From: Phycisphaerae bacterium | GTDB lineage: Bacteria > Planctomycetota > Phycisphaerae > UBA1845 > UTPLA1 | Direction of reading: 5' to 3' | DNA length: 64,000 nucleotides | NCBI GenBank assembly: GCA_035275405.1 | Contig: DATEMU010000015.1 | Coordinates: forward strand, 737,768 to 801,767 | Shown: piece by piece, positions 5,610 through 48,298 of the stretch | Layout of the letters: each line of letters opens with the position of its first letter | How positions within the stretch are numbered: the stretch's first letter is position 1 | The notes under the pieces: model-generated | What the model was told of the DNA's origin: nothing | The model's database searches: none | What the model saw: the letters and a program-made list of their open reading frames with translations, nothing else | Program-made: the position numbers and the translations under genes

Positions 5610-6164
5610 ATGATCCCGTTGAAACAACATGCTCAGGTGGCCGCGGCGCTCGAGGAGCATCTCGCCGAGCGCTTTGATGGCGTGACCGTTCGCATCGGCG
5701 ACAACATTCACTACAAAGGAACGAACATCGTCATTACCTGTCCGGCCTTCGCGGCCTGGCTGCCGGAGCAGCGCTTTCACCACATCGTGCGGGCGATCCC
5801 CGCGGACTTTTACGAGCGCCATCTGCGGCAGGGCGTGGTGTGGTTCGAACTGGCCCCGGGGGAAAGCCCTGCGGCCTACATGAAGATGCCGCGTTCGGAA
5901 GACATCGAGGCCGATGAAGCGACGATTGGTCATCGCCTGAGGGCGATCGATTTCTATGCGCGCCTGCAGGCAGCGCTCAGCGCGCGCAACGCGATGCCGT
6001 CGGCGGACGATTTTGTCGTGTCCAGGCGACTGCTGGCCGAATCGGGGATGGACGAAGTCAGCGTGATGAAAGCCTGCTTATTCCTGATTCGTCAGGGGGC
6101 GTATTGCGACGCACAGGTTTTGGCTGATATCGTGCCGAGGATGGCCGTCGAGCAGGCACGTTAA
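5610..6164 (+). CDS. hypothetical protein
   Basis: 184-aa ORF with coding-like composition and no recognisable motif. Confidence 0.4.
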   Translation: MIPLKQHAQVAAALEEHLAERFDGVTVRIGDNIHYKGTNIVITCPAFAAWLPEQRFHHIVRAIPADFYERHLRQGVVWFELAPGESPAAYMKMPRSEDIEADEATIGHRLRAIDFYARLQAALSARNAMPSADDFVVSRRLLAESGMDEVSVMKACLFLIRQGAYCDAQVLADIVPRMAVEQAR

Positions 6165-6504: not shown

Positions 6505-6771
6505 CTAATTGATGATCGGATACGGGTTGCCGCCGAGAAAAGTTTGAATGACGTCCGATCCGGGGAAGTTCTGGAACAACACCTGCTGGACCGAGCCGAC
6601 AAATAGACTGAAGACCGTGCTGGTGATCTGCTGACCCAGGTACGAATTCAGGGCAAAAGGATCGCAGGTGCCGGTCGTTTGAAAGAGCGGCAGCGCGGCA
6701 ACGGCCATGAGCAGTCCCTTCCGTCGGCGATAAAGTCGAGTGATGAAAGAGGTCATCGTGGTGGTCTCCAA
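6505..6771 (-). CDS. small secreted protein (paralog 2)
   Basis: RRRKGLLMAVAALPLFQTTGTC N-terminus, sharing the AALPLFQ..C..FQ motif with 6172-6444. Confidence 0.4.
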   Translation of the reverse strand: METTTMTSFITRLYRRRKGLLMAVAALPLFQTTGTCDPFALNSYLGQQITSTVFSLFVGSVQQVLFQNFPGSDVIQTFLGGNPYPIIN

Positions 6772-6935
6772 TGGTCTTCTGCGAGCGGGGCCGCACTATA
6801 TCGAAAGTTGCCGGGCCTCGCAACGCACCAAGACCGGCGAAACGGCGGACCGCCTCTCTCCCTATATCGACGGGCGAGGGCCTCTCTAACTAGCGGCGCC
6901 GGTTTTGGTTAAGGGGGAACCGGCAGAGCCCCGTT

Positions 6936-15309: not shown

Positions 15310-16833
15310 ATGCCTAGGCCGCAAGGACCCCGACAATTCCACAAAAAGCACAAGCGACCGCACGACGCCCATATCAAGCGTCCCGCCGTCCTGCCGTCCT
15401 CCTATGATGACGACGAAGACACGACGGCCGTCGCCGTCGCCAACGGCGATGCGCCCGACGCCGCTCCGGCGCCCGTCCCCGCCAGTGCCCCCGTGGCGCC
15501 CGAGACTCCTGAAGCCGTCGAAGCGCGCGGCACCATCGACCGCGAGACGCACGAACGCTACGAAAAGATCAAGCGCGGCGATCTGCACATCACCGAATTG
15601 CAGCGGATGAGCATCCCGGACCTGCACGAGGTCGCCAAGGCCGAGGGCGTCGTTGACTACGCCGCCCTCAAGAAACAGGATCTCATCTTCAAGATACTGA
15701 AAGAGCGAATCAACAAGAACGGCCTCATGTACGGCGAGGGCGTCCTGGAAATCCTGCCCGACGGCTTCGGTTTCTTGCGCAGCCCCGAGTACAACTACGT
15801 CCCGTGCCCGGACGACATCTACATCAGCCCCTCGCAGATCCGCCGCTTCGGACTGCGCAGCGGCCACATCATCGCCGGTCAGATCCGCCCACCCAAGGAG
15901 AGCGAGAAGTATTTCGCGCTCCTTCGCGTCGAGGCGATTTGCTTCGAGGAACCCGACAAGGTCACCGAGAAAGCCGTCTTTGAAGACCTGACGCCGCACC
16001 ACCCGACGCGCCGCCTCATCATGGAGACGACGAACGACGAAGTGAACATGCGTGTCATCGATATCGTCACGCCCATCGGCATGGGTCAGCGCATGTTGAT
16101 TGTCGCTCCGCCGCGCACCGGCAAGACGGTCCTGCTGCAGAAGATGGCCAACGCCATCACCACCAACCATCCCGACGCCTACGTGATCATCCTCCTGGTC
16201 GACGAGCGCCCCGAGGAAGTGACGGAAATGCAGCGACACACCAAGGCCGAAGTCATCTCCTCGACCTTCGACGAGCCCGCCAGCCGCCACGTACAGGTCG
16301 CCGAAATGGTCATCGAGAAGGCCAAGCGCCTGACCGAGTACGGCCGCGACGTGGTAATCCTGCTCGACTCGATTACCCGCCTGGCCCGCGCCTACAACAC
16401 CGAAGTGCCGCACTCCGGCAAGATCCTGACCGGCGGCGTGGATGCCAACGCCCTGCAAAAGCCCAAGCGCTTCTTCGGCGCCGCCCGCAACATTGAAGAG
16501 GGCGGCAGCCTGACGATTATTGGCACCGCCCTTGTCGACACCGGCTCCAAGATGGATGAAGTCATTTTTGAGGAGTTCAAGGGTACCGGTAACAGCGAGT
16601 TGCACCTCGACCGGCGTTTGGTGGACAAGCGCGTCTGGCCCGCGATTGACATCGCCGCGTCCGGCACGCGCAAGGAAGAGCTGCTGCTCGACCCTAAGGA
16701 GCTGGAGCTGGTCTACAAGCTCCGCCGCGTCCTCGTGGACATGAACCCTGTCGAGGCGATGGAACTGCTCATCACGCGCCTGAAGAAGGTCAAGTCCAAC
16801 GCCGAGTTCCTGATGACGATGAATCTGGCGTGA
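15310..16833 (+). CDS. rho: transcription termination factor Rho (with low-complexity N-terminal extension)
   Basis: Rho RNA-binding and ATPase motifs ([14 protein letters not shown]...[15 protein letters not shown]); GGAGG RBS 8 nt before the ATG at 15310. Confidence 0.95.
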
Positions 16834-30603: not shown

Positions 30604-31014
30604 TCACGATTCGCCGTTTCCTGCCCGATTCAACACTTCCCAATCCGGTTCCGTCCACGACAGCACTCGACCGTCTGACGGATCGAACTTCACCATGCCT
30701 TCGACGGCCTGGCCTTTGTCGGAAACGGTTTCATAGACATACGCCCACTGTTCGGAATTCTCCGTCCGTTGCAGGCGGAGCGGCTCGCCGAGCGTGTGCC
30801 GAACGTCCTTGCGCGTCATTCGCGTCGTCAATTTGCGCCATTGCGCCAGGAGCGGCGTCAGCCGCGTGGCGGAACAAAGGAGCACCTCGTCGGCCGCGTT
30901 CGGCCCGCCACTCGGCGGCAACGATTGCCCGCATCGGGCACAAAATCTTGCCGCCGCCGCACTCTCCAGGCCGCAGGAGCCGCATCGCGTCAGGGGTTGT
31001 ACGTCAGTTCTCAT
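30604..31014 (-). CDS. zinc-ribbon domain protein
   Basis: CGSCG...CARCG ribbon; coupled (4-nt overlap) to the upstream flotillin gene. Confidence 0.45.
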   Translation of the reverse strand: MRTDVQPLTRCGSCGLESAAAARFCARCGQSLPPSGGPNAADEVLLCSATRLTPLLAQWRKLTTRMTRKDVRHTLGEPLRLQRTENSEQWAYVYETVSDKGQAVEGMVKFDPSDGRVLSWTEPDWEVLNRAGNGES

Positions 31015-32990
31015 GACTTTCGCTCTACCAGAGCGCCACGAATCTCTTCGCGGATTCGCAGCGCTTCGGGGTTGGCCTTCTGTTCCTTCAAGATACCATC
31101 CCCGTTGCTCAACCGTTCGGACAGCATCATTCCGAGCAGCGCTTCCAACGCATTGCCGGTCCCGCCGCCGTTTTGGCCGCCCATCATGATCTTCGGCACG
31201 AGGTCGATCTTCGACTGTTGCACGGCCTCGGCGAAACGGGACATTACTTCCTTGGTCAACTGGAACTGCGGGCCGCCGTACGCGCGGACCTGTTCCTCGA
31301 TGGCGATCGCCGTGGCGATGCCGATGCGGGCAGCCTTCTCGGCCTCCGCCTCAGCCAGGGCGCGAATCTGGGCCGCCTGTTGCAGCGACCGCTGGTAGTC
31401 GGCCTTACCCTGGTTGCTCTGCACGGTGATGGAGACCTCGCTTTCGGTCAGGTTCTGCTGCTGCTTGGCACGGGCCTCGGCCTCGCGCAGTTCGCGCTCC
31501 TTGACCGCAGCTTTTTCCTGGCGGGCATACGTCTCGATTTGCTCTTCGGCGATCTGCCGCGTGCGAAGCTGCGTAAGAATGTTCTCGATCTTGTTGTCGC
31601 CTTCGGAGGAACCGGGCGTTCCGATCAAGACTTCTTCCAGTTCGAGATTGTAATGGGCAAATTTCTCGGCCATTTCCTCGCCGGCGAGTTTTTGGATCAT
31701 CGCGCGGTCCTGGATGAGCTGGATGATCGTCCGCGTCTGGGCCGTGTTCTTGAAATAGGCGGAGACCATCGGGTCGAGGGTCTGCTCGACGAGGCGCTTG
31801 ACGTCCCCGAAGCGCTGAATGACGAGCGGCGCCTTGCGATAGTCGATGTGCACGACGACAGACAGCGGCAGCGTCGGCTCGAATGCGTCCTTGGTGATGA
31901 GCGACACTTCGGTAAGGTTTTCATCGTACTTGTGCATCCCGCTTTCGTTGCGAATCCATTTCAGGATGAAATTCGTCGTCGGGACCATGATGATCTTGCC
32001 GGCACAGGTGTTGAAGGCGTACTTGCCGGGCAGGAGGGCGACGTTCCATACGCCGCGCTGGCCCTGTTTGACCAGTTCGCCGTGCTTGTACTCAGTACCA
32101 GAGAGGTCCGCGCCGATCTCGCCGGTGTAGGACACGACGACGCCGACCTGCCCGACCTCGACGACCGTCTTGGGAATCATCTCGATCGTCGCGAAGAGGC
32201 GGTTGAGGTAGTAGGTACCTTCGACCAGCACCTGAAGTTGCCGGCCGCGGCGGCCGCCCGCCCGAAGAAACCGTTCGGGGTCCTGAAAGCTATTGTGGAA
32301 GAGGTCTTTGTTCGCCGGGTCGCCTCCGACGATCGGAGCGATGATCTCTCCGTCGGCCAATCCGGGGCCGTCGTGAATCGTCACGATGCCCAAGAGGTCG
32401 TCGGAGCCCTTGATGACCAGGGGTTCAAAGCCGTCACGCTCGTCGATCAGCTCCGCCATTCGTTTGAATTTGATATCGTCGTCGTCCTCCAAGGGGAGGT
32501 AATAGACCTGTTCCTCGGTGATGACGACGAATTGGGCGAGGTTAATGGCGTAGGTTCCTTCGCGGAGGATCTTGCGCTGGGGTCCGCGTTGGCCGCCGTT
32601 CGTCAGGAAATGACGCACGTCCTCGAAAGTGCTCGCCTCCATGTTTGAGGCCAGGGCCTGCATCGGCTGCAATGCGGTGCCGTCGCGGGCGAAGACGTAG
32701 CCGACCTTTCCCTGCGGAATTGTTACGAGCGGAATGCTGTGGACCTTGAATTGCAGGGGCGTCAGAACGTGCAGACCGCCGCGCAGGACGTCCGGCTGAA
32801 AGCCCGCCTCGCCGTGGAGGGCGATCAAGCCGTGGGGCACGGAGCCCTTGCGGCTCCAGCGCTTCTCGACGATGCCGACACGCTTATTGGGGATGTAGCG
32901 AATGCCGGCCAGGATCAGGATGACAAATGCCGCGATCGCGGCGGCGATGACGTAGCCCATCAACGATACTGATGCAATTGATGTAAACAT
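31011..32990 (-). CDS. flotillin-like SPFH/band-7 family protein
   Basis: N-terminal TM followed by an SPFH domain and a long coiled-coil Ala/Glu-rich region (AEARAKQQQNL...IRALAEAEAEKAARIG), typical of YqiK/FloT. Confidence 0.8.
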   Translation of the reverse strand: MFTSIASVSLMGYVIAAAIAAFVILILAGIRYIPNKRVGIVEKRWSRKGSVPHGLIALHGEAGFQPDVLRGGLHVLTPLQFKVHSIPLVTIPQGKVGYVFARDGTALQPMQALASNMEASTFEDVRHFLTNGGQRGPQRKILREGTYAINLAQFVVITEEQVYYLPLEDDDDIKFKRMAELIDERDGFEPLVIKGSDDLLGIVTIHDGPGLADGEIIAPIVGGDPANKDLFHNSFQDPERFLRAGGRRGRQLQVLVEGTYYLNRLFATIEMIPKTVVEVGQVGVVVSYTGEIGADLSGTEYKHGELVKQGQRGVWNVALLPGKYAFNTCAGKIIMVPTTNFILKWIRNESGMHKYDENLTEVSLITKDAFEPTLPLSVVVHIDYRKAPLVIQRFGDVKRLVEQTLDPMVSAYFKNTAQTRTIIQLIQDRAMIQKLAGEEMAEKFAHYNLELEEVLIGTPGSSEGDNKIENILTQLRTRQIAEEQIETYARQEKAAVKERELREAEARAKQQQNLTESEVSITVQSNQGKADYQRSLQQAAQIRALAEAEAEKAARIGIATAIAIEEQVRAYGGPQFQLTKEVMSRFAEAVQQSKIDLVPKIMMGGQNGGGTGNALEALLGMMLSERLSNGDGILKEQKANPEALRIREEIRGALVERKS

Positions 32991-33410
32991 GTTTTGACCT
33001 CCCGTTATTCGGTTACTCTATGGCAAGTCGCGCGATCCGGCGATGGGATCGAGCGCGGTCTTCTTACGGAATGCCGCTCTCTTGCACAGAAAATATTCCG
33101 GCTGTGCAGATTGTTTGCTGTTAAGGAGGAGACATTGACGGCTCCAGCGTACGCCTACGGGGTTAGCTGACGGGCTCGCGAGCGCTGAATCCGCGTCCAC
33201 CGAATCCGGTGAATTCGCCCCTGCGACATCGCAACAAAGCGACGGCGCGTTTGGTTCCCCCGCTGCTGCCCATCAACCGGGCAACACTCGGCAGATTCAA
33301 ATATACCACAGGAACGAACGGCGGCAATTATAAAGAGAATCCGTTGCTATAAGGCTGTTCAGTCGAGGGTTAGGACGGCGACTGTTCTCTTGCACAGTTT
33401 TTGCGTGTTG

Positions 33411-34865: not shown

Positions 34866-35213
34866 TCACAAGCCAAGTGTCGCGCGGAGGGCCCCGTCAA
34901 TGACCTTCATATCGTCTATTCGTCCAATTGCGCGGTCGATTTCACTGTTGAGCACGGTCGCAAGATTGTCGGCAACGATGACCGAGTCGGTAAGCAATCC
35001 GGCCTGCCGCCCGATTGGCGATCCCATTTGAACCACAATTCTACTCGGAGGGCCGGCGCGGTGCAGGTTGCTGGTGATCATTGCGACGATTGTTTGGGGA
35101 AGTCCCGTATGCAGTTGATCGGATTGAACGATCAGGGCAGGTCGGCGCTTGACTGTGCGGAGATTGGAGTCAGGAAACAAGACCAAGACGACTTCGCCGC
35201 GGCTATAAGGCAT
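34866..35213 (-). CDS. MazF/PemK-family type II toxin (endoribonuclease)
   Basis: MazF/PemK-like sequence (PYSRGEVVLVLFPDS...KRRPALIVQSD...IVAMITSN); start likely at the internal MPYSRGE. Confidence 0.65.
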   Translation of the reverse strand: MPYSRGEVVLVLFPDSNLRTVKRRPALIVQSDQLHTGLPQTIVAMITSNLHRAGPPSRIVVQMGSPIGRQAGLLTDSVIVADNLATVLNSEIDRAIGRIDDMKVIDGALRATLGL

Positions 35214-35433
35214 CGTAGACGTCCATGTCCCCCCGGTCCCAATCGTCGACGAAGGCACCAAGCCGCCGGCGCAGATCGGCGGCCTGTTCCGGTGTCAATC
35301 CACGGGACGCCAACTCCGCCGATTTGCCATTCTCCGGGAAGCTCACGACCACGGGCGTTTCCGCCGTGGTGGGGGCCGGCTCCAGCAACTCGACCTTGCC
35401 GTTGCGATAGACTCCAGGAACTAGTCGATCCAT
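35203..35433 (-). CDS. putative antitoxin (VYxNGxVELLEP-type)
   Basis: 76-aa ORF upstream of and overlapping the toxin start; N-terminal GVYRNGKVELLEPAP resembles antitoxin families that pair with PIN/MazF toxins. Confidence 0.5.
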   Translation of the reverse strand: MDRLVPGVYRNGKVELLEPAPTTAETPVVVSFPENGKSAELASRGLTPEQAADLRRRLGAFVDDWDRGDMDVYDAL

Positions 35434-35522
35434 CTCGTGAATCCTCTTGAGGGACGCCGAATCGTCCTCGTGACCTTCTCTCTATTATAACAGCGGAGGG
35501 ACGCTGACGGCCACCACAGTTG

Positions 35523-40673
<5,151 letters not shown>

Positions 40674-40678
40674 CGGCG

Positions 40679-41242
40679 TCAGATTCCAGCGTCTCGTTTG
40701 AGTAACTCCAAGTCCTTGCGTAAGCCAAGCTGGTCGGCCCATTGATGCAAATATGGCCAATCGAGGCGCACGTTCTGAAACCGCACAACTGCCAGCGCGT
40801 TGTCCCACTGCTTCTGCGATTCCGTCTCCATCCTCCAAAGGAGCTTCATCAAGATCGCGTCCTCCGGCGAGACGGTCCAAAAAGCCTTGTTTTCTCCGTA
40901 TGTGATTTTTTTCCGCCGGGCAAGAACACCTCCGAGATAACCGCCGGGCGGCAGAAATGACAGATCGATCTTAAGGCCCGTCTTGTTGTCGACCAGATTA
41001 ATCATGGAATGCTCTGCCGCCGCCGCGCGAACGGCAACGTCATCCCGATAGTACCGAGGCGGAAGCAAGTTCAGAAAACGATCGAGCACGACAGGCGATA
41101 CTTGCAAACATAAATCAACATCCCAGCTTGCGTACGGTTCTGAATAAACAGCGCTTGCCACCGAACCCGTGATTGCATACGTAGCATTCGCCTGCTCAAG
41201 CAGATCGCACACGGACTCAATCAATTCGAAAAGCTCACTCAT
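40679..41242 (-). CDS. minimal nucleotidyltransferase (MNT)-fold protein inserted between the uvrA halves
   Basis: GS-x12-DxD pattern (ITGSVASAVYSEPYASWDVDLCL); ATGA overlap with the upstream 73-aa ORF. Confidence 0.45.
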   Translation of the reverse strand: MSELFELIESVCDLLEQANATYAITGSVASAVYSEPYASWDVDLCLQVSPVVLDRFLNLLPPRYYRDDVAVRAAAAEHSMINLVDNKTGLKIDLSFLPPGGYLGGVLARRKKITYGENKAFWTVSPEDAILMKLLWRMETESQKQWDNALAVVRFQNVRLDWPYLHQWADQLGLRKDLELLKRDAGI

Positions 41243-41460
41243 TGAATCTCGCCTCGATTGGCCCTTTGGGCTGCAATGATGAAATCCGTGAGCTGGCCCA
41301 CTCGCTCCAGGCGGATTCGCACGCTCGTTGCCTTCGCCATGTCCCGCTGCACTCGACGGTCCCGTTGTGCCGGACTCTCGTTCTGCAGGAGATCGCTCGT
41401 CATTCGATCCAGGCGAGCTAGACGATCCGAGATACCCTGTTCAACAGTGGATGCGTTCAT
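41239..41460 (-). CDS. hypothetical 73-aa protein (possible partner/antitoxin of the MNT protein)
   Basis: 4-nt overlaps with both the uvrA N-half stop and the MNT start; Arg-rich and helical. Confidence 0.35.
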   Translation of the reverse strand: MNASTVEQGISDRLARLDRMTSDLLQNESPAQRDRRVQRDMAKATSVRIRLERVGQLTDFIIAAQRANRGEIQ

Positions 41461-43385
41461 TTTCGATTCCGGTTTCGCTCGTTGGTCCTCGAAATCGGCC
41501 GACGTTGCTTTGGTATCTCAATGGACTTGTGGCCTGCAAGGTACTGTCCAGTGAGTGACGCTTGGGACTTCATAATATCCGCGAAATCGCCTGCGGCGAC
41601 GATCTCCCCGCCGCGGACGCCGGGGCCGGGGCCGAAGTCGACGATGTGGTCCGCGGCGCGCATGGTCGCCTCGTCGTGCTCGACGACGATGACGGTGTTG
41701 CCCATGTCGCGGAGGGCCAGGAGGCTTTCCAGGAGCTTTTCGTTGTCGCGGGCGTGCAGGCCAATGGACGGCTCGTCCAAAACGTAAAGGACACCCACGA
41801 GGCCGGCGCCGATCTGGCCGGCGAGGCGGATGCGCTGCAACTCGCCGCCGGAGAGCGTGGGGGCGGTGCGGTCGAGCGTCAGGTATTCCAGGCCGACCTT
41901 GAGAAGGAAATCGATTCGCGTCCGCAGTTCCTTCAGCACTTCCTCGGCGACGATCTGCTGAACGGGTGTCAGTTTCAATTTCGCCAGCGTCGTTTGGGCG
42001 TCGGCGATGGACATCGCGCAGAGTTCGCAGATGTTCGGGCCAGGCGCGCGGCCATCCACCGGCAAGCGCACGCCCAGTGCCGCCGGGTTCAATCTTGCAC
42101 CGCGGCACTCTGGGCAATCGCCCCGGCGCATGAACTTCTCGTAATACTCGCGGACGAAGTTCGCCTTCGCCTTGCGATATTTGTCGCGCAATTCCTCGAT
42201 GACGCCCGCGAACGGCCCCCCGTGCTTCCACACGCCGCCGGACCAGCGCCATTCGTACGTGATGTGGCGGTCGCCGGTGCCGTACAAGAGCGCCGCCCGC
42301 GCTTTTTCCGGGAGTTCTTTCCATGGCTTGCGGATGTCGAAGCCGACGGTGCGGGCCACGGCGTCATAGATGTGCCGCCTCCAGCGACCGACCTTGGTCC
42401 GCATCGGTGCGACGCACGGCGCGTAGAACGGCAGTGACGGGTCGGGGATGAGCAGGTCGGGGTCGAAGTCCATCAACTCGCCCAGACCGTCGCATTTCAG
42501 GCACATGCCCTGGGGCGAGTTGAAAGAGAAGAGCTGCGGCGTCGGCGGTTCGAAGGAGATCGAGCAATTCGTGCAGGCGTATTTCGAGGAGAAGACTTTT
42601 TCGCCCGCGGTTCGCTTCCTCGGCTCACCGCTCAGGTCCGGCGAGATGATCAGTGTGCCCTCGCCTACGCGAAGTGCGCCTTCGACCGCTTCCGCCAGCC
42701 GTGAACGCACATTGGGGTCGACGATGAGCCGATCGATCACCACCTCGATGTCGTGCCGCTGGTTTTTGACAAGGGCGAGGTCCTGCCGGAGTTCGACGAT
42801 TTCGCCGTCCACGCGGGCGCGCACATATCCGGCGCGCATGAGATCGTCGAAGAGGTCGCGGAACTCGCCTTTCTGCCCGCGCGCGACGGGGGCGAGGACC
42901 AAAACTCGAGAGCCACTCGGCGCTCCCTTACGGTTGCGGCTCTGAGCGACGAACGCGGCGAGGATACCCGCGACGATTTGCTCGCGGGACTGCGCCGAGA
43001 TCGGCCGGCCGCACTTTGTACAATGCTGGGTACCAATCCGCGCGTAGAGCACGCGCAAAAAATCGTAGATCGCCGTGACCGTGCCGACGGTCGAGCGGGG
43101 GTTCCAGCCGGTCGATTTCTGCTCGATGGCGATGGAGGGGGAGAGCCCCGTGATCATGTCGCAATCGGGCTTTTCGAGCTGGCCCATGAACTGCCGCGCG
43201 TAAGACGAGAGCGATTCGATGTAGCGGCGCTGCCCCTCGGCGTAGAGCGTGTCGAAGGCCAGCGAACTCTTGCCGCTGCCGGAGACGCCGGTGAAGACGA
43301 TCAGCTTGTTCCTCGGCAGCGAGAGCGAGACCGAACGCAGGTTGTGAGCCCGCGCCCCCTTGATTTCGATTGTCGTGGGTTCCAT
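41457..43385 (-). CDS. uvrA: UvrA N-terminal half (ABC module I with UvrB-binding and insertion domains), stand-alone gene
   Basis: [66 protein letters not shown]...[34 protein letters not shown]...SLTGQYLAG, then a stop. Confidence 0.85.
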
Positions 43386-43585
43386 TCTGTTTCCCGACCG
43401 CCCCCCGGGCGAAAGGGGGATTTTATACGAATAAACCCGTCCGCGGCGGGTGTTGGGATGCCCCTCCCGGTTTGACGAACCCGACGGCGGCCAATTATCA
43501 TGGGGTCCGGTTCCGGATCAGTTGTCCATCGCGTTGCAGGGCGGGTTTTCGCCCGCCGCCTGCGGTATTGGCACGGAGAATTCAC

Positions 43586-44530
43586 ATGGCGCGCTTGTAC
43601 AAAAACATCGTGGAGACCGTCGGTCGGACCCCGCTCGTCCGAATCAACCGCATCATCCAGTCCAAGGCGGAGGTCTATGGCAAGCTCGAGTTTTTCAACC
43701 CGCTGTCGAGCGTGAAGGATCGCATCGGCATGTCGATGATCGAGGCGGCCGAGTCGGCCGGGCTGATCAACAAGAATACGGAGATCATCGAGCCGACGAG
43801 CGGGAATACGGGGATCGCCCTGGCGTTCGTCTGCGCGGCCAAGGGATACAAGCTGACGCTGACCATGCCGGAGTCGATGAGCCTGGAGCGTCGCGGTCTG
43901 CTCAAGGCGCTGGGGGCGAAGCTGGTGCTGACGCCCGCGACGGAGGGGATGCCCGGGGCGATCCGCAAGGCGAAGGAACTCGTTGAGCAGACACCGGGGT
44001 CGTTCATGCCGCAGCAGTTCGACAACCCGGCGAATCCAAAGATCCATCGCGAGACGACGGCCGTGGAGATCTGGGAGGACACCGACGGCAAGGCGGATAT
44101 CCTGATTTCCGGAATCGGCACCGGCGGGACGATCACCGGCGTTGGCGAGGTCATCAAGGCGAAGAAGCCGAGCTTCAAGGTCATCGCCGTCGAGCCGGAG
44201 GAATCGCCGGTGCTGACGCAGACGAAGGAAGGTCAACCGCTCAAACCCGGTAAGCACATGATTCAGGGCATCGGCGCGGGATTCGTACCGTCGATCCTGA
44301 ACACGAAGGTCTACGACGAGATCATCCGCGTGAACTCGACCGACGCGATGGCCTGGGGCCGCCGCGCGGCGAAGGAGGAGGGGCTGCTCGTGGGCATTTC
44401 GTCCGGGGCGGCGCTGTGCGTCGCGAACCAAGTCGCCCAGCGGCCGGACAGCGCGGGGAAGATGATCATTGTGATTATTCCGTCGTCAGGCGAGCGGTAT
44501 CTCAGCTCGGCGATGTTTGCGGAAGGATAA
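43586..44530 (+). CDS. cysK: cysteine synthase A
   Basis: [34 protein letters not shown] and a cysteine-synthase-like body. Confidence 0.9.
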
Positions 44531-44629
44531 AGAGGGAAGTTGGAATGGTCGCCTCGGCGACTAAACTTTGGAACGCGGACTTGCAAGAGCCGCGTCGGGG
44601 AAAGAAACGAAAGGTTTGGATAAACACGA

Positions 44630-45247
44630 ATGACTGTCATAAAGGCGACGAACATTGTCTGGCACGAAGGGCACGTATCGCGCGAGGGGCGCGAAAAGCT
44701 GCTCAAACAAAAGGGCTGCACCATCTGGTTGACGGGGCTGCCTTCGAGCGGCAAAAGCACGATCGGGTTTTCGCTGGAGCACGCGCTGATCCAGCAGGGG
44801 CGGCTGGCCTATGTCCTCGACGGGGACAACATCCGTCACGGCCTGAACAAGAACCTGGGCTTTTCGGCGGAAGATCGCGCGGAGAACATCCGCCGCATCG
44901 GCGAGGTCGCCAAGCTCTTCGCCGACGCGGGCGTCGTCACGATCACGTCGTTTGTGAGCCCCTATCGCGCCGACCGCGACATCGTGCGCAAGCTGCACGA
45001 CGACGCGAAGGTCCCGTTCGTCGAGGTCTTCATCGACACGCCAGTCGATGAGTGCGAGAAGCGCGACCCCAAGGGGCTGTACAAGAAGGCCAAGGCCGGG
45101 GAGATCAAGAACTTCACGGGCATTTCCGACCCCTACGAAGCGCCGCTCAAGCCGGAAATGGTGCTGAAGACCGCCGAGTGCAAGCTGGAAGAGTGTGTGG
45201 CGAAGCTGGCGGAGTATCTTGAAACGAGCGGAGTTCTGACGCCGTAA
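44630..45247 (+). CDS. cysC: adenylyl-sulfate (APS) kinase
   Basis: P-loop LTGLPSSGKSTIG, DGDNIRHGLNKNLGFS, and an overall CysC-like sequence. Confidence 0.9.
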   Translation: MTVIKATNIVWHEGHVSREGREKLLKQKGCTIWLTGLPSSGKSTIGFSLEHALIQQGRLAYVLDGDNIRHGLNKNLGFSAEDRAENIRRIGEVAKLFADAGVVTITSFVSPYRADRDIVRKLHDDAKVPFVEVFIDTPVDECEKRDPKGLYKKAKAGEIKNFTGISDPYEAPLKPEMVLKTAECKLEECVAKLAEYLETSGVLTP

Positions 45248-45259
45248 GGGCCGCCGACG

Positions 45260-48166
45260 TTAGTCGGCCAGCAGCGTACTTACAAAATACGAGAGGTCGC
45301 CAGCATCGAGACTTCCGTCGCGATCGGCGTCTCCCGCGCAAATTCCGGCGGATGAAGGGTTGGCCGCGAAGGCTTGCTGGACGAATACTCGAATATCTCG
45401 GCCGTCGATTACTCCATCGTCGTTGACGTCCCCATTTGGGTCGTTTTCGCACACCGTCAAGTGTGCCGACTGGCTGATCACCGACGCGCATTCATTGTTT
45501 GTCTCTAGGTCATAATCCCCTTCGTCGAGCGCGCTGACCGATTGAATAGTCAGGAGCGGCGTGTTCGTCCCATAGATGCGTGCGTCGTCCGAAAGGGGGA
45601 CGCCGTCCTTTCGCCAGCGATACGTCAGATCCTGACCGCTCGTGGCGGATCCCGTAAAGAGGACTCGGCTACCGACTGGAGCGCTTCGATCAAGCGGTTC
45701 CTCATACCACGCCGGTGCTTCGTACTGCGGGTCCCAGCGGGCAATTCGGCCGGAGGATAGGCCACCGGCGGTCGTGAAGCCACCGCCCACGTAGAGTGCA
45801 GGAGGAATCGGGCCGTCACCATCATCATCGAATGGCAATACGGCGTACGCCAATCCGTCTAAACCTGAGCCAAGAGCAGTCCAAGCGGCGCCATCCCACT
45901 TTGCAATTCTGTTCGCGGCCCGCCCGCCCGCACCCGAGAATTGGCCCCCGGCATAGAGCACGGGAGGGTTCGGGCCATCATCATCCTGATCAAAGACGGC
46001 AAGAGCATACACTTCCCCATTAGCGCCCGCTCCGAGGGGTGACCATTCAAGGCCATCCCACTGGGCAATGTTGGCAGCCGAAATACCGCCTATGCCAGTA
46101 AATTGACCGGCAACGATCAGTCTCTGAACGGTGGGTCCGATGCCATCAGGGTCGAAAACTATCATGGCCCGGATATGAGGCGACGATCCGGTTGGGGCGG
46201 CACCAAGTGCAGACCAGCGTGTTCCATCCCACTTTGCAAAGCATCGAAAATACTCCAGATCTGGCTCGCCGTCTCCGTCTTCGTCGGGTCCTTCCTGATA
46301 AACGGAGAAGTCCCCTCCTACAAAAAGGGCCGGCCGCAAGGGGCCGGATCCGTCTTCATCGAAGACGCATAGCGCGTCAATCTCTGGCGACACATGTGAC
46401 ACTGATGTAAGCGAGTCGCCATCCCATTTCGCAAAACGCAAGGACGAAGAAAAACAGGCGATATACAATGCCTCTCGGTTCGGCCCATTCGCATCGTCAT
46501 CGAATACGCACAGTGCGGTAACCCCCGTTATCGTATTATCCACTGTGGACCAGGTGTTTCCATCCCACCTTGCCAGGATTGTCGGATCACCGACGAAGAG
46601 CGATGTCGGCGCGGGCCCCGGACCGTCCTCGTCAAATCCCGCCATGGCATTTATCCAAATCGTGCTAAACGGTCCCGGCATGCCCTCCCAACAGCGTCCG
46701 TCCCAGCGGGCAACTTGCCCTGGCTCGGATCCGGCCAGAGAAAAGCGGCCAGCCGCGTAGAGCGACGGGGGTGCGGGACCGTCCCCGTCAGCATCCAGAG
46801 TAATCAGCGATTTCACGAATTCATTCATACTGGCACGTAATGGCTCCCAGGTCGGACCATTCAATCGGGCGACCGGTCCGAAATTATATTGGTCTTGGGT
46901 GAAGCTCCCGCCCAAATAAGGTCTCAGCTCGGAATGGCAGTAGGGATCCTTAAACTCCGCCCATGCAAACCCCTCGCGGAGCCGGGAAGGACTTCCAATC
47001 GATAACCAATTCAGTCCATCCCATTCAGCCACGTGCCATGCATTCAGCCCGCCTGCGTCAGAGAATGATCCAGTGACATAGAGGGTCGCCGGATCTGGAC
47101 CCACTCCATCGGCGTCAAATGACAACATCGCATTGACACGACCGCTGGTGCCCGTTCCAACTCCGGACCAGGCGGTGCCGTTCCATTTGGCGATATGACT
47201 CAATGAACCGGAATTGAACTCCCCGCCGGCATAAAGTTCCGGTCGATGCGGCCCCACGCCATCGTCGTCGTGGACCGTCAAGCAATACACCCACGAGGTT
47301 AACCCGCTGCCGACTGCCGACCAAGCAGTGCCGTCCCAGCGGGCGATCTTTGTCGCTGGAACGGAGCCAGCCATGTGAAAACTACCGCCTGCAAAAAGCC
47401 GGGGCGGTACGGGGCCATCGCCATCCTCATCATGCGTCGCCAAGGCCCGCACGGTGTCGCCGACACCGCCCCCCAGACTCTCCCAGTTGCCCGCGAAGTA
47501 TTTCGCGACACGTAGAGTGGGCTCGCCGTCAACCACGGTAAACGATCCTCCAACAAACAGCGCCGGTTTGTTAGGTCCGTCGCCGTCGTCGTCGAATATC
47601 TCGAGGGCATAGACGAAGCCCTCTGGGCCGTTCCCCAGGGGAGCCCAAGACTCGCCGTCCCATTGGGCGAGGTACTTGATATTCGTGCCCCCGGCTGATA
47701 AGAACCCTCCTCCGACAACGAGTTTGGCGCGGCCCGGACCCTCACCGTCTTCGTCATATACCTTAAGGCAATAGACCGCTTGAAAGAGTGTCACCGAGAT
47801 TCCACCGCCGACAGGTGACCATTTTCTGCCATCCCATCGTGCGATTCCGCTCGCGCTTACGCCTCCCATGTTCGTGAACGACCCGCCAGCAAACAGCATG
47901 GGGGGAAGAGGACCGGTTCCATCCTCATCAAACACGGCCATGGCGCGAACTTCACCGCCGCTCACGATGGAAAACCCAAACTGATCCGACCACGGCGGAG
48001 GACATTCAGCTTGAAGAGCGTCGGAGAATACAAATACGATGACGCCAATGATGAATGCGCGTTGTGATATTGATTTGCGATGGGTATCGACTTCCAAATA
48101 TGATCGGCGCTTGTTCATGGATGACGCAAGAAATCCGGCCCAAGGGCGATTGTAACAACTCGTCAT
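45260..48166 (-). CDS. secreted delta-60-like repeat protein with C-terminal dockerin-like module
   Basis: ~15 repeats of GG.F...GG.....IA.WDG..W...G.G; C-terminus DVNDDGVIDGRDIRVFVQ...DADRDGSLDAGDLSYFVSTLL. Confidence 0.6.
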   Translation of the reverse strand: MTSCYNRPWAGFLASSMNKRRSYLEVDTHRKSISQRAFIIGVIVFVFSDALQAECPPPWSDQFGFSIVSGGEVRAMAVFDEDGTGPLPPMLFAGGSFTNMGGVSASGIARWDGRKWSPVGGGISVTLFQAVYCLKVYDEDGEGPGRAKLVVGGGFLSAGGTNIKYLAQWDGESWAPLGNGPEGFVYALEIFDDDGDGPNKPALFVGGSFTVVDGEPTLRVAKYFAGNWESLGGGVGDTVRALATHDEDGDGPVPPRLFAGGSFHMAGSVPATKIARWDGTAWSAVGSGLTSWVYCLTVHDDDGVGPHRPELYAGGEFNSGSLSHIAKWNGTAWSGVGTGTSGRVNAMLSFDADGVGPDPATLYVTGSFSDAGGLNAWHVAEWDGLNWLSIGSPSRLREGFAWAEFKDPYCHSELRPYLGGSFTQDQYNFGPVARLNGPTWEPLRASMNEFVKSLITLDADGDGPAPPSLYAAGRFSLAGSEPGQVARWDGRCWEGMPGPFSTIWINAMAGFDEDGPGPAPTSLFVGDPTILARWDGNTWSTVDNTITGVTALCVFDDDANGPNREALYIACFSSSLRFAKWDGDSLTSVSHVSPEIDALCVFDEDGSGPLRPALFVGGDFSVYQEGPDEDGDGEPDLEYFRCFAKWDGTRWSALGAAPTGSSPHIRAMIVFDPDGIGPTVQRLIVAGQFTGIGGISAANIAQWDGLEWSPLGAGANGEVYALAVFDQDDDGPNPPVLYAGGQFSGAGGRAANRIAKWDGAAWTALGSGLDGLAYAVLPFDDDGDGPIPPALYVGGGFTTAGGLSSGRIARWDPQYEAPAWYEEPLDRSAPVGSRVLFTGSATSGQDLTYRWRKDGVPLSDDARIYGTNTPLLTIQSVSALDEGDYDLETNNECASVISQSAHLTVCENDPNGDVNDDGVIDGRDIRVFVQQAFAANPSSAGICAGDADRDGSLDAGDLSYFVSTLLAD

Positions 48167-48225: not shown

Positions 48226-48298
48226 TGGGCCCGCTCGGACTCGAACCGAGAACCAGGAGATTATGAGTCCCCTGCTCTAACCATTGAGCTACGGGCCC
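48226..48298 (-). tRNA. tRNA with CAT anticodon (tRNA-Ile2/lysidine-type or elongator Met)
   Basis: Reverse complement GGGCCCGTAGCTCAATGGTTAGAGCAGGGGACTCATAATCTCCTGGTTCTCGGTTCGAGTCCGAGCGGGCCCA folds as a cloverleaf; anticodon loop cuCAUaa; resembles ileX-type tRNAs; no encoded CCA. Confidence 0.85.

What the first reader, a model, noticed from the sequence alone, without database searches (positions are those of the whole stretch)
40679..41460. Coupled MNT-like nucleotidyltransferase plus small partner inserted at the UvrA inter-domain linker
The 187-aa ORF has the minimal nucleotidyltransferase signature GS-x12-DVD (ITGSVASAVYSEPYASWDVDLCL), as in AbiEii-type or MNT toxins and antitoxins. 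It is preceded by a 73-aa Arg-rich ORF. The pair resembles a small toxin-antitoxin or defence module, and its precise placement at the UvrA linker with overlapping stop and start codons suggests an old, well-integrated insertion. A 200-nt out-of-frame overlap between the MNT ORF and the 5' end of the giant ORF also makes the true start of the C-half uncertain.
Basis: partly seen in the sequence, partly recalled or inferred. Interest (0 to 1): 0.6.

Follow-up and report, generated by a model that had tools for sequence, protein, structure and literature searches.

The report
Nucleotidyltransferase cassette nested in split uvrA
A two-gene toxin-antitoxin-type cassette (a small helical protein plus a MenT1-like nucleotidyltransferase) sits exactly between the two halves of the DNA-repair gene uvrA; this arrangement is shared across a whole clade of Phycisphaerae bacteria, and their version of the enzyme has lost a residue that the related toxin needs in order to be toxic.

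Summary
On the minus strand, four ORFs are packed end to end:
- UvrA N-half, 41457-43385
- 73-aa partner, 41239-41460
- 187-aa nucleotidyltransferase (NTase), 40679-41242
- UvrA C-half fused to a second full UvrA and a 360-aa C-terminal domain, 35523-40673

The two upstream junctions are ATGA overlaps. The last junction is a 5-nt gap. The "200-nt overlap" comes from taking the longest ORF; the C-half starts at the ATG at 40673.

The NTase models confidently (pLDDT 94.9). Its best solved-structure match is the M. tuberculosis toxin MenT1. It is not an MNT/HEPN antitoxin.

It belongs to a large family (about 935 clusters at E<=1e-10) that normally pairs with an Rv0078B (MenA1)-like small ORF and is never next to uvrA. 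One monophyletic subclade occurs only inside a split uvrA: 26 of 26 distinct members. Planctomycete outgroups have the gene unsplit. About half of the split lineages have lost the cassette but stay split.

Both genes are under purifying selection (dN/dS 0.07-0.25). The subclade replaced two active-site residues that are invariant elsewhere: R37 is lost, and D148 became N. The D148 position equals MenT1 D152, which is essential for toxicity.

Verdict: an entrenched MenAT1-derived cassette with a remodelled enzyme. It is a new variant of a known kind.

The parts
41457..43385 (-). uvrA N-half (642 aa): first ABC ATPase module with the UvrB-interaction and DNA-binding insertion domains, ending in a basic tail (…[18 protein letters not shown])
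   Evidence: NCBIfam PRK00349 positions 4-609 of 943, E=3.4e-235; TIGR00630 753.7 bits. Pfam UvrA_inter and UvrA_DNA-bind.
41457..41460 (-). ATGA overlap: stop of the uvrA N-half and start of the 73-aa partner
   Evidence: Read from the sequence. A 4- or 8-nt overlap is seen at this junction in 12 of 17 related loci where the two genes are adjacent.
41239..41460 (-). 73-aa Arg-rich helical partner. Subclade-specific family with the motif P-x-x-RDR-x-x-Q…LAQA…; a remote, remodelled relative of the Rv0078B/MenA1 antitoxin.
   Evidence: An iterated HMM collects 27 unique relatives, all in uvrA gaps, either free-standing or fused to the NTase. hhalign against the Rv0078B-like partners gives P=3.5e-4 over 34 columns. 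The equivalent part of a natural fusion models as two helices. dN/dS 0.10-0.25.
41239..41242 (-). ATGA overlap: stop of the partner and start of the NTase
   Evidence: Read from the sequence.
40679..41242 (-). 187-aa MenT1-fold nucleotidyltransferase. Retains G26 S27, S39, D41xD43, K91xD93, E127 D128 and K133. Has Y37 where relatives have an invariant Arg, and N148 where they have an invariant Asp.
   Evidence: AF2 pLDDT 94.9. Foldseek top hits are MenT1 8an5/8an4/8rr5 with TM 0.61-0.68. hhalign against the MenT1 family gives 94.4%. Residue tables.
40674..40880 (-). Spurious 5' extension of the giant ORF (TTG 40880), overlapping the NTase gene out of frame. Not coding in this frame.
   Evidence: No family match. 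Relatives start the C-half after the NTase stop.
39501..40673 (-). uvrA C-half (second ABC ATPase module of the first UvrA unit). Starts at ATG 40673, 5 nt after the NTase stop.
   Evidence: PRK00349 positions 599-941 of 943, E=4.1e-170. Sequence.
36603..39500 (-). Second, complete UvrA unit fused in frame to the C-half
   Evidence: PRK00349 positions 5-942 matched by residues 392-1357 of the ORF.
35523..36602 (-). Conserved ~360-aa C-terminal domain of unknown function (plus stop), specific to this planctomycete tandem UvrA
   Evidence: Alignment A3 has 61% mean column identity and no Pfam family. Found in 59 genome loci.

Best explanation
**What it is (shown).** It is a two-gene cassette: a small helical partner followed by a MenT1-fold nucleotidyltransferase. 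It lies in the linker between the two ATPase halves of the first UvrA unit of a tandem UvrA-UvrA-CTD gene. The order is uvrA-N, partner, NTase, uvrA-C…, joined by ATGA overlaps and a 5-nt gap, so the four ORFs form one translationally coupled operon.

**Where it came from (inferred from comparative data).** One member of a large, mobile family was captured once in an ancestor of a Phycisphaerae clade. That family pairs an NTase with an Rv0078B/MenA1-like small protein, as in the MenAT1-type toxin-antitoxin system. The capture happened at, or soon after, the fission of uvrA. Since then the cassette has:
- been inherited mostly vertically;
- been occasionally exchanged between lineages by recombination through the conserved uvrA flanks;
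- been lost many times, always leaving uvrA split.

**How it works (inferred by homology).** The NTase binds NTP and Mg2+ through G26-S27, D41xD43 and K133. In the MenT1 precedent, the enzyme adds nucleotides to tRNA 3'-CCA ends and blocks aminoacylation. The partner would bind the active-site face, sequester the enzyme and promote auto-phosphorylation of S39, which is equivalent to MenT1 T39.

The uvrA-resident subclade, including this window, has changed two residues. It has Asn at the position of MenT1 D152, where D152A abolishes toxicity. It has also lost the Arg equivalent to MenT1 R37. The partner is often fused in cis to the NTase. I therefore expect an attenuated or re-targeted enzyme rather than a fully potent toxin. 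This would fit its long residence inside a housekeeping operon whose promoter it shares.

UvrA itself presumably works as a non-covalent N-half/C-half assembly and does not need the cassette.
For: **Anatomy.** ORFs, overlaps and the ATG at 40673. UvrA model coordinates are 4-609 and 599-941.

**Fold and family.**
- pLDDT 94.9; top five PDB matches are MenT1.
- Profile against PDB 8an4, E=1.3e-6.
- hhalign against the MenT1 family: 94.4%, 143 columns.

**Family structure.**
- 3038 cluster representatives at E<=1e-3, 935 at E<=1e-10, and 15 at E<=1e-30.
- The 75 metagenome loci at 30-38% identity are not near uvrA. Nearly all carry an upstream ~75-aa ORF. Five of five of these ORFs tested hit Pfam Rv0078B, though below the cut-off. 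The Pfam annotation stored for L008 lists that family for its partner.
- Relatives occur on six plasmids.

**Site exclusivity.** All 26 distinct subclade NTases abut a UvrA half.

**Polarity of the change.**
- Six Pirellulaceae or Rhodopirellula loci and L072 have an unsplit gene. No unsplit gene occurs inside the Phycisphaerae clade.
- On the CTD tree, cassette-bearing loci are scattered through the whole split clade, with cassette-free sisters: L014/L001, L052/L051 and L056/L054. L037 and L040 group with L006.
- L040 keeps the partner only. L018 has a broken NTase, detected as two short fragments.

**Co-divergence.** Mantel r=0.56, with 0 of 2000 permutations reaching it.

**Exchange between lineages.**
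- The window and L020 share 81% CTD identity but only 45% NTase identity.
- Between L001 and L055, pS is 0.12-0.16 in the cassette, against 0.34-0.58 in 23 of 24 flanking 100-codon windows.

**Selection.** dN/dS is 0.07-0.17 for the NTase and 0.10-0.25 for the partner.

**Active site.**
- Position 148 is N in 72 of 76 subclade representatives, but D in 73 of 73 broad-family members and D152 in 20 of 20 MenT1-family members.
- Position 37 is R in 73 of 73 broad-family members, but R in only 2 of 75 aligned in the subclade.
- D41, D43, K133 and S/T39 are retained.
- Published MenT1 data: D41A, K137A and D152A abolish toxicity (PMC10435456). MenA1 induces T39 auto-phosphorylation; in simulations R37 and K137 contact the ATP alpha-phosphate; D152A keeps auto-phosphorylation but not tRNA modification (PMC11375011).

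**Fusions.** 24 of the 80 hits (all within the 76 subclade members) are single-chain partner-NTase proteins. Fusions also occur in the broad family.
Against: - Nothing here is experimental. tRNA nucleotidylation, toxicity, neutralisation and auto-phosphorylation are all carried over from MenT1, which is only 17-20% identical.
- The partner's homology to MenA1/Rv0078B is weak. hhalign probability is 37% and P=3.5e-4. The window partner has no Pfam hit.
- The N148 = D152 equivalence rests on an ungapped extension three residues beyond the hhalign alignment, plus the broad-family column. It is not based on a superposition I could inspect. Asn is itself conserved, so the site may be functional in another way rather than attenuated.
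- Trees are neighbour-joining only. Monophyly of the subclade has 18 of 30 bootstrap support.
- Whether the insertion caused the fission or colonised an existing gap cannot be resolved. L047, the earliest-branching locus of the main split clade, has an IS200-like gene instead of the cassette.
- The gap also hosts unrelated genes, so it is a permissive site in general.
- Exclusive location, conserved coupling and a conserved Asn are equally what a co-opted function would predict.
Confidence: 0.6

Rival explanations
1. It is a fully active, classical toxin-antitoxin or abortive-infection module that merely happens to sit in uvrA. The NTase would be a potent tRNA-targeting toxin. The 73-aa protein would be a labile antitoxin. 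The pair would persist by addiction or as phage defence.
For: - Homology to MenT1 and AbiEii.
- Small overlapping upstream ORF, as in MenAT1.
- The broad family is mobile and plasmid-borne.
- An orphan partner remains after NTase loss in L040, and L018 has a broken NTase. This is the typical decay pattern of such modules.
- Signs of horizontal exchange of the cassette.
- Frequent loss.
Against: - Asn replaces the Asp whose Ala mutant is non-toxic in MenT1, in 72 of 76 subclade members. The invariant Arg37 is lost.
- About 30% of members are covalent partner-NTase fusions. This does not fit release of a toxin by antitoxin decay.
- No promoter-like site of its own.
- No PADLOC or PHROGs match and no viral relatives.
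- Strict single-site residence over divergence down to 38% identity is unlike ordinary toxin-antitoxin turnover.
Confidence: 0.22
2. It is a co-opted accessory of the split tandem UvrA machine. The NTase (or pseudo-enzyme) and its partner would now act in the DNA-damage response. They might couple uvrA expression to a translational brake, modify a nucleic-acid or protein substrate in repair, or help the two UvrA fragments assemble.
For: - Exclusive location in the uvrA gap, 26 of 26.
- Start/stop overlaps with the N-half in 12 of 17 loci and tight abutment to the C-half.
- The NTase stays next to the C-half even where a mobile element has pushed the N-half away, as in L021.
- Purifying selection.
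- Subclade-specific, conserved active-site changes (N148 in 72 of 76), which look like a change of function rather than decay.
Against: - At least 21 of 38 classifiable split lineages lack the NTase. They keep both UvrA halves under strong constraint, and none has re-fused.
- Halves can be unlinked with no cassette, as in L069 and L017.
- The gap also holds unrelated genes: WapI-like, glyoxalase, IS200-like transposase and PALP enzyme.
- The cassette shows exchange between lineages, as selfish or accessory DNA does.
Confidence: 0.14
3. It is a decaying relic or an ORF-calling artefact: non-functional reading frames left by an old insertion.
For: - The window protein fails all curated family cut-offs.
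- Lower GC than the flanks.
- Some members have eroded catalytic residues, for example P0061 and P0003.
Against: - dN/dS 0.07-0.25.
- 76 cluster representatives with many invariant residues.
- Confident fold, pLDDT 94.9.
- Both ORFs are intact in more than 20 independent assemblies.
Confidence: 0.03

Closest known systems
MenAT1 (Rv0078B-Rv0078A) of Mycobacterium tuberculosis
   Same: - A small (~70 aa) helical protein is encoded just upstream of, and overlapping, a ~190-aa NTase.
- The NTase is the best structural match (8an5/8an4/8rr5, TM 0.61-0.68), and the profile match is 94.4%.
- It shares G-[SG], the S/T39 phospho-acceptor position, D41xD43 and K137 (=K133).
- The wider family to which the window NTase belongs pairs with Rv0078B-like ORFs.
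   Different: - Only 17-20% identity, and it does not reach the Pfam AbiEii (PF08843) cut-off.
- N148 stands at the position of the toxicity-essential D152, and R37 is lost.
- The partner has lost the C-terminal …CHNRNY part of the Rv0078B-like proteins and gained an N-terminal helix. Homology is only marginal.
- It is embedded in a housekeeping operon at one fixed site and is often fused to its partner.
AbiE (AbiEi/AbiEii) type IV toxin-antitoxin / abortive-infection systems, DUF1814
   Same: Same NTase superfamily and motif logic: motif I/II DxD and motif III Lys. Two of 24 relatives give weak AbiEii Pfam hits.
   Different: - There is no AbiEi-type antitoxin (winged-helix plus C-terminal domain).
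- The NTase is much shorter than DUF1814 proteins such as MenT3 and MenT4.
- No PADLOC match.
   Same: Minimal Pol-beta-type NTase signature, GS…DxD.
   Different: - In HEPN-MNT the NTase is the antitoxin and its partner is a HEPN RNase. Here the partner is a 73-aa helical protein with no HEPN match.
- The best structural matches are the MenT1 toxin rather than an MNT antitoxin.
Pfam DUF6036 (PF19502), nucleotidyltransferase of unknown function
   Same: It is the best Pfam neighbour. Eleven of 24 relatives match (best E=2.3e-6), and the window protein matches at E=0.023.
   Different: The window protein is below the gathering score. The match covers only the C-terminal helices (residues 118-169).
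Tandem (double) UvrA of Chlamydiae, NCBIfam PRK00635 (1809-position model)
   Same: The host gene is also a UvrA-UvrA tandem in a bacterium of the Planctomycetes-Verrucomicrobia-Chlamydiae group. The model matches both the N-half and the giant ORF.
   Different: - Scores are far below that model's cut-off (978 against 3054 bits).
- The planctomycete gene has an extra 360-aa C-terminal domain.
- In Phycisphaerae its first unit is split into two genes.
Genes interrupted by mobile elements, such as phage 'regulatory switches' in comK or sigK (from my own knowledge, not tested here)
   Same: A conserved chromosomal gene is interrupted by foreign DNA at a precise site.
   Different: - There is no recombinase or excision machinery in the cassette.
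- The split is permanent and both fragments stay functional-looking.
- The insert is co-translated with the host gene rather than excised to restore it.

Membership tests
MenT / AbiEii-type NTase toxins (MenT1 as type member) | Pol-beta NTase fold matching MenT1 over its full length | tested here: met
   AF2 model pLDDT 94.9. Foldseek top five hits are MenT1 chains, E 3e-7 to 4e-6, TM 0.61-0.68, 185-195 aligned columns.
MenT / AbiEii-type NTase toxins (MenT1 as type member) | Motifs I/II: G-[SG] … D-x-D metal site (MenT1 D41, D43) | tested here: met
   G26 S27 … D41 V D43 in the window. D41 in 72 of 75 and D43 in 74 of 75 subclade members.
MenT / AbiEii-type NTase toxins (MenT1 as type member) | Motif III lysine (MenT1 K137) | tested here: met
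   K133 aligns with K137. It is invariant in 76 of 76.
MenT / AbiEii-type NTase toxins (MenT1 as type member) | Motif IV aspartate (MenT1 D152, MenT3 D211, MenT4 D186), required for toxicity | tested here: not met
   The window has N148 at the aligned position. N in 72 of 76 subclade members, D in 73 of 73 broad-family members and in 20 of 20 MenT1-family members. D152A abolishes MenT1 toxicity (PMC10435456).
MenT / AbiEii-type NTase toxins (MenT1 as type member) | Ser/Thr phospho-acceptor two residues before the DxD (MenT1 T39) | tested here: met
   S39 in the window. S or T in 75 of 75 aligned.
MenT / AbiEii-type NTase toxins (MenT1 as type member) | Pfam AbiEii (PF08843) at the gathering score | tested here: not met
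   No PF08843 hit for the window protein. Weak hits in 2 of 24 subclade-alignment members and 4 of 34 broad-family members.
MenT / AbiEii-type NTase toxins (MenT1 as type member) | Growth inhibition by tRNA 3'-end nucleotidylation, neutralised by the cognate partner | not testable with these tools
   Needs toxicity assays and in-vitro NTase assays.
MenA1 / Rv0078B antitoxin (Pfam PF18993) | Sequence-profile membership of the small upstream protein | tested here: inconclusive
   - The window partner has no PF18993 hit, and the Rv0078B-like HMM does not hit the window.
- hhalign of the gap-partner profile against the Rv0078B-like profile: P=3.5e-4, probability 37%, 34 columns.
- The closest relatives' partners (L001, L004, L055) are picked up by the iterated Rv0078B-like HMM at E<=1e-3.
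MenA1 / Rv0078B antitoxin (Pfam PF18993) | Short helical protein encoded immediately upstream of, and overlapping, the NTase gene | tested here: met
   73 aa with an ATGA overlap. The equivalent part of a natural fusion models as two helices, pLDDT 76-90.
HEPN-MNT toxin-antitoxin | Adjacent HEPN-domain RNase partner | tested here: not met
   No HEPN family in either ORF or in the neighbours.
AbiE (AbiEi/AbiEii) | AbiEi-type antitoxin with a winged-helix DNA-binding domain | tested here: not met
   The partner is 73 aa with no such Pfam or PADLOC match.
Known anti-phage defence systems (PADLOC-DB 2.0) | Match to any defence-system protein model | tested here: not met
   No family at E<=1 for either protein.
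Pfam DUF6036 (PF19502) | Score at or above the gathering cut-off (23.6 bits) | tested here: not met
   15 bits, E=0.023 for the window protein. Eleven of 24 relatives match at E<=0.1, best 2.3e-6.
UvrA (TIGR00630 / PRK00349), host gene | N-half plus C-half together cover the full model with Walker motifs in both ATPase modules | tested here: met
   Positions 4-609 and 599-941 of 943. GVSGSGKSS and LDEP(S/T)xGLH are present in both halves in the translations. dN/dS of the flanks is 0.01-0.16.

The most novel reading that the evidence does not exclude
The pair is no longer a selfish toxin-antitoxin module. It has become an integral, co-translated component of a multi-polypeptide UvrA machine (uvrA-N, partner, NTase, uvrA-C-UvrA-CTD). 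In this reading the MenT-derived enzyme, with its conserved Asp-to-Asn change, has acquired a role in the DNA-damage response. For example, it could act as a damage-coupled brake on translation or as a nucleotide-dependent assembly or regulatory factor for the split UvrA.
Probability: 0.14. Interest if true: 0.8.

Novelty: new variant of a known kind. Interest (0 to 1): 0.55.

Why it matters
- **A clean natural case of a cassette inside a split core gene.** A toxin-antitoxin-type cassette sits exactly at the point where a core DNA-repair gene was split into two genes, and this has lasted across a class-level clade. It lets one ask directly whether such cassettes can drive, or stabilise, gene fission.
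- **A possible route for spread.** The cassette may move by homologous recombination, using a highly conserved host gene as homology arms. The sharp dip in synonymous divergence confined to the cassette is the lead for this.
- **A natural mutant series for MenT-type enzymes.** There are 72 of 76 lineages with Asn at the toxicity-essential Asp, plus covalent partner-enzyme fusions. This speaks to how toxins are tamed and to the recently proposed mechanism of partner-induced auto-phosphorylation.
- **UvrA tolerates the split.** UvrA tolerates separation of its two ATPase modules, even when the two genes are unlinked.

If the co-option reading were true, it would add a new component to nucleotide excision repair in Planctomycetota.

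Tried and rejected
**Searches that found nothing useful**
- NCBIfam, PADLOC and PHROGs scans of both ORFs gave nothing.
- A word-indexed homologue search with the 73-aa partner found only itself. Partner relatives had to be collected from the loci with an iterated HMM.
- The viral-contig scan with the NTase alignment found no relatives.
- The promoter and terminator scan of 35000-44000 gave counts equal to shuffled expectation and nothing inside the cassette.
- Rfam and tRNA scans found no RNA element in or next to the cassette.

**Tools or runs that failed**
- The AFDB50 fold library was unavailable.
- The first frame chosen for the giant ORF was wrong.

**Readings considered and rejected**
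- MNT/HEPN: there is no HEPN partner and the fold is closest to the MenT1 toxin.
- Sporadic recent insertion: the arrangement is shared by more than 20 genomes and co-diverges with the host gene.
- Strictly vertical inheritance: contradicted by the window/L020 discordance and the L001/L055 dip in pS.
- A real 200-nt gene overlap: it is a longest-ORF artefact.
- Using the first 200 residues of the C-half as a host marker: too conserved to resolve relationships (Spearman 0.28). It was replaced by the C-terminal domain.
Full report
**1. What is in the window**

Four ORFs follow one another on the minus strand:
- a 642-aa ORF at 41457-43385;
- a 73-aa ORF at 41239-41460;
- a 187-aa ORF at 40679-41242;
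- a giant ORF ending at 35523.

The 642-aa protein matches positions 4-609 of the 943-position UvrA model PRK00349 (E=3.4e-235). It carries the UvrA interaction and DNA-binding domains.

Read from the ATG at 40673, the giant ORF starts with UvrA model positions 599-941 (E=4.1e-170). It continues with a second complete UvrA (residues 392-1357). It ends in a ~360-aa domain with no Pfam family. The host gene is therefore a tandem UvrA-UvrA-CTD whose first unit is cut exactly between its two ATPase modules.

The junctions are as follows:
- The stop of the N-half and the start of the 73-aa ORF overlap as ATGA.
- The stop of the 73-aa ORF and the start of the 187-aa ORF also overlap as ATGA.
- The stop of the 187-aa ORF is 5 nt before the ATG at 40673.

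Those 69 codons match nothing. In relatives the C-half starts after the NTase stop.

GC drops to 0.53-0.56 in the cassette, against 0.62-0.68 around it. No promoter- or terminator-like site stands out. The neighbouring genes are housekeeping.

**2. What the two small proteins are**

Taken alone, the 187-aa protein fails all curated libraries. Its only hit of note is DUF6036 at E=0.023. NCBIfam, PADLOC and PHROGs give nothing.

It nevertheless has 80 homologues of about 190 aa at E<=1e-10. NCBI annotates the source sequence as a hypothetical protein of a Phycisphaerae MAG (metagenome-assembled genome).

Several lines place it with MenT1, the Rv0078A toxin of M. tuberculosis:
- A profile of 24 homologues hits PDB 8an4 (MenT1) at E=1.3e-6.
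- The AlphaFold model (pLDDT 94.9, pTM 0.89) has MenT1 chains as its five best PDB matches, aligned over the full length (TM 0.61-0.68).
- A profile-profile comparison with a 20-sequence MenT1 family alignment gives 94.4% probability over 143 columns.

The alignment adds S39 (MenT1 T39), K91xD93, E127 D128 and K133 (MenT1 K137).

The 73-aa protein is Arg-rich, with 12 of 73 residues. It belongs to a small family with the motif P-x-x-RDR-x-x-Q…LAQA. An iterated HMM collects 27 unique members, every one in a uvrA gap.

**3. The wider family and its usual partner**

An exhaustive search of 1.84 billion cluster representatives gives these counts:

| E-value cut-off | Cluster representatives |
|---|---|
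| 1e-3 | 3038 |
| 1e-10 | 935 |
| 1e-30 | 15 |

A metagenome scan returned 80 loci. They fall into two groups:
- The five with at least 41% identity all lie between UvrA halves.
- None of the 75 at 30-38% identity is near uvrA.

Nearly all of these 75 loci carry an upstream ~75-aa ORF with the pattern RPNHKxY..LRxMxPExRL..FELSEF…ERLDKCHNRNY. Five of five of these ORFs tested hit Pfam Rv0078B, the MenA1 antitoxin family, but below the cut-off. In the Chloroflexi locus L008, the stored Pfam annotation lists that family for the partner, and a VapBC pair lies next to it. Relatives also occur on six plasmids of cyanobacteria and Herpetosiphon.

The wider family therefore has the organisation of MenAT1. 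In that system:
- MenT1 adds CMP to tRNA 3' ends.
- MenA1 is a 68-aa helical protein that binds across two MenT1 molecules (PMC10435456).
- MenA1 induces auto-phosphorylation of T39 (PMC11375011).

The uvrA-gap partner is only marginally related to the Rv0078B-like partners. hhalign gives P=3.5e-4, probability 37%, over 34 columns. Its C-terminal half aligns with their N-terminal half, the region that corresponds to MenA1 helix alpha-1.

**4. The arrangement is conserved, and where it came from**

Every homologue of at least 38% identity whose context could be read lies in the same place: after a UvrA N-half, before a UvrA C-half-UvrA-CTD gene, or both.

To sample relatives independently of the cassette, I scanned one genome per species with the C-terminal domain of the giant ORF. 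This gave 59 loci, which I classified with tblastn and an NTase HMM:

| State | Loci |
|---|---|
| Unsplit gene (six labelled Pirellulaceae, Planctomycetaceae or Rhodopirellula, plus L072); the halves are in frame, 24-30 nt apart | 7 |
| Split, NTase in the gap | 14 |
| NTase abutting the C-half, N-half not within 4-5 kb | 3 |
| Split and linked, no NTase (gaps of 118-971 nt) | 13 |
| C-half with no N-half upstream (in L069 it lies 9 kb downstream) | 8 |
| Could not be classified | 14 |

In L021, one of the three loci of the third row, a tyrosine-recombinase-like ORF has been inserted upstream of the cassette. No unsplit gene occurs inside the Phycisphaerae-type clade.

On a neighbour-joining tree of the C-terminal domain rooted on the unsplit loci, cassette-bearing loci are spread through both main branches of the split clade. 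Cassette-free loci appear as their close sisters: L014/L001, L052/L051 and L056/L054. L037 and L040 group with L006. The L040 gap keeps the partner alone. L018 has a broken NTase, detected as two short fragments.

NTase and host divergence are correlated (Mantel r=0.56, 0 of 2000 permutations). The subclade NTases form one clade nested in the wider family, with 26 of 26 tips but only 18 of 30 bootstrap support.

The simplest history is a single capture near the time of the fission, followed by mainly vertical descent and many losses that leave the gene split. Whether the insertion caused the fission cannot be decided.

**5. Signs of exchange, and a permissive gap**

Inheritance is not purely vertical.
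- The window's closest relative by host gene is L020, with 81% identity in the C-terminal domain and 93% in the C-half. Its NTase is only 45% identical. The window's NTase instead groups with L004, L055 and L001.
- Between L001 and L055, synonymous divergence (pS) is 0.34-0.58 in 23 of 24 flanking 100-codon windows. It is 0.115 in the partner and 0.15-0.16 in the NTase.

The cassette has therefore been replaced between lineages. The likely route is homologous recombination through the conserved uvrA flanks; this is an inference.

The gap also holds other genes in some genomes:
- a WapI-like gene in L004, with a similar ORF in L039;
- a glyoxalase and a nucleoside-deoxyribosyltransferase-like gene in L010;
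- an IS200-like transposase in L047;
- a PALP enzyme in L015.

**6. Selection and a remodelled active site**

Both ORFs are under purifying selection, as are the UvrA flanks:

| Gene | dN/dS |
|---|---|
| NTase | 0.07-0.17 |
| Partner | 0.10-0.25 |
| UvrA flanks | 0.01-0.16 |

I compared 26 subclade NTases, 73 wider-family NTases and 20 MenT1-family sequences. I also tabulated 76 subclade cluster representatives.
- **Retained.** G26, S27, S/T39, D41, D43, K91, D93, E127, D128 and K133.
- **Position 37.** Arg in 73 of 73 wider-family members and in MenT1 (R37). It is hydrophobic or aromatic in the subclade, with Arg in 2 of 75 aligned; the window has Tyr.
- **Position 148.** Asp in 73 of 73 wider-family members. 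It aligns, without gaps, with the invariant MenT1 D152. It is Asn in 72 of 76 subclade members, including the window.

In MenT1, D41A, K137A and D152A abolish toxicity (PMC10435456). D152A loses tRNA modification but keeps auto-phosphorylation. In simulations, R37 and K137 hold the ATP alpha-phosphate (PMC11375011).

In addition, 24 of the 80 hits, all within the subclade, are single-chain partner-NTase fusions. One fusion models confidently as a helical hairpin followed by the NTase (pLDDT 89.8, pTM 0.84). Fusions also occur in the wider family.

A conserved Asn, strong constraint and cis-fusion point to a tamed or re-targeted enzyme, not to a decaying gene or a fully potent toxin. This step is an inference. 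The residue equivalence rests on alignment, not on a superposition I could inspect.

**7. Mechanism and rivals**

My best reading is an entrenched MenAT1-derived cassette. It is co-transcribed and translationally coupled with a split uvrA. Its NTase still binds NTP and Mg2+ and is controlled by its helical partner, through sequestration and possibly auto-phosphorylation of S39. Its toxic tRNA-nucleotidylating activity is weakened or altered. UvrA works as a two-piece assembly that does not need the cassette.

| Reading | Confidence |
|---|---|
| Entrenched MenAT1-derived cassette with an attenuated or re-targeted enzyme | 0.60 |
| Ordinary active toxin-antitoxin or abortive-infection module | 0.22 |
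| Cassette co-opted into the UvrA machine or the damage response | 0.14 |
| Non-functional relic | 0.03 |

- **Active toxin-antitoxin module.** It is favoured by the orphan partner, the exchange and the losses. It is disfavoured by N148, the loss of R37, the fusions and the strict single-site residence.
- **Co-option.** It is favoured by the exclusive location, the conserved coupling and the conserved Asn. It is disfavoured by at least 21 of 38 split lineages doing without the NTase and never re-fusing.
- **Relic.** It is contradicted by dN/dS and by conservation.

**8. Comparison with what is known, and novelty**

In organisation and fold, this is closest to MenAT1. It is not a member of Pfam AbiEii or DUF6036 at their cut-offs, and it fails the motif-IV Asp test. 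It is not HEPN-MNT or AbiE. The host gene resembles the chlamydial tandem UvrA in architecture only.

Two literature searches turned up the MenT papers but nothing on a toxin-antitoxin-type cassette nested in a split uvrA. That is weak evidence of absence.

I rate the finding a new variant of a known kind. It combines:
- a known enzyme-partner module in an unusual, clade-wide genomic niche;
- a subclade-specific change in the active site;
- frequent fusion of the partner to the enzyme.

Noticed in passing
window 35523-40673 (-) and loci L014-L072: The host gene is a tandem UvrA-UvrA with a conserved ~360-aa, Trp-rich C-terminal domain that matches no Pfam family. The domain is found in 59 planctomycete genome loci, from Phycisphaerae down to 27-31% identity in Pirellulaceae.
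   Followed up: partly
L069 (N-half at 15662-16228, C-half at 6023); L017, L027, L028, L031, L043, L048, L068: In eight species-level lineages the UvrA C-half has no N-half within 3-6 kb upstream. In L069 the N-half lies 9 kb downstream. The two halves of the first UvrA unit can therefore be encoded at unlinked positions.
   Followed up: partly
L004:4990-5457; L039:5343-5882; L010:5340-5993 and 6733-7116; L047:5224-5862; L015:3053-4018; L021:1337-2614: The uvrA gap also collects unrelated genes: a WapI (PF24716) gene in L004 with a similar ORF in L039, a nucleoside-deoxyribosyltransferase-like gene and a glyoxalase, an IS200-like transposase, a PALP enzyme, and a tyrosine-recombinase-like ORF.
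   Followed up: partly
L001:5783-6573 versus L055:5031-5821: Synonymous divergence drops to 0.12-0.16 in the cassette, against 0.34-0.58 in 23 of 24 flanking uvrA windows. The cassette is younger than its flanks in this pair.
   Followed up: yes
L040:5730-5939: This gap retains only the small partner gene (69 aa) and no NTase. It is an orphan partner left after loss of the enzyme.
   Followed up: partly
P0061, P0003, P0076 (relatives of the 187-aa ORF): A few subclade members have lost core metal-binding residues: P0061 has T41 and E43, P0003 has A41, and P0076 has N41. Catalysis may be dispensable in some lineages.
   Followed up: no
window 33137-33303 (-): A c-di-AMP riboswitch (Rfam RF00379, 63.2 bits) lies upstream of the SPFH/Band-7 domain gene at 31011-32990 (-).
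   Followed up: no
window 48226-48298 (-): A tRNA-Met (CAT) gene lies immediately upstream of the 968-aa beta-propeller / Ig / dockerin protein gene at 45260-48166 (-).
   Followed up: no
window 43370-45247 (+): A PALP (cysteine-synthase-type) gene and an APS kinase gene lie divergently next to the uvrA N-half. In L015 a PALP gene sits inside the uvrA gap itself.
   Followed up: no
P0216, P0226, P0231, P0253 (wider NTase family): About a quarter of the listed wider-family members are 245-300 aa long. Three of the four read (P0226, P0231, P0253) carry an Rv0078B-like segment fused to the NTase N-terminus. Single-chain partner-NTase forms are therefore not confined to the uvrA subclade.
   Followed up: partly
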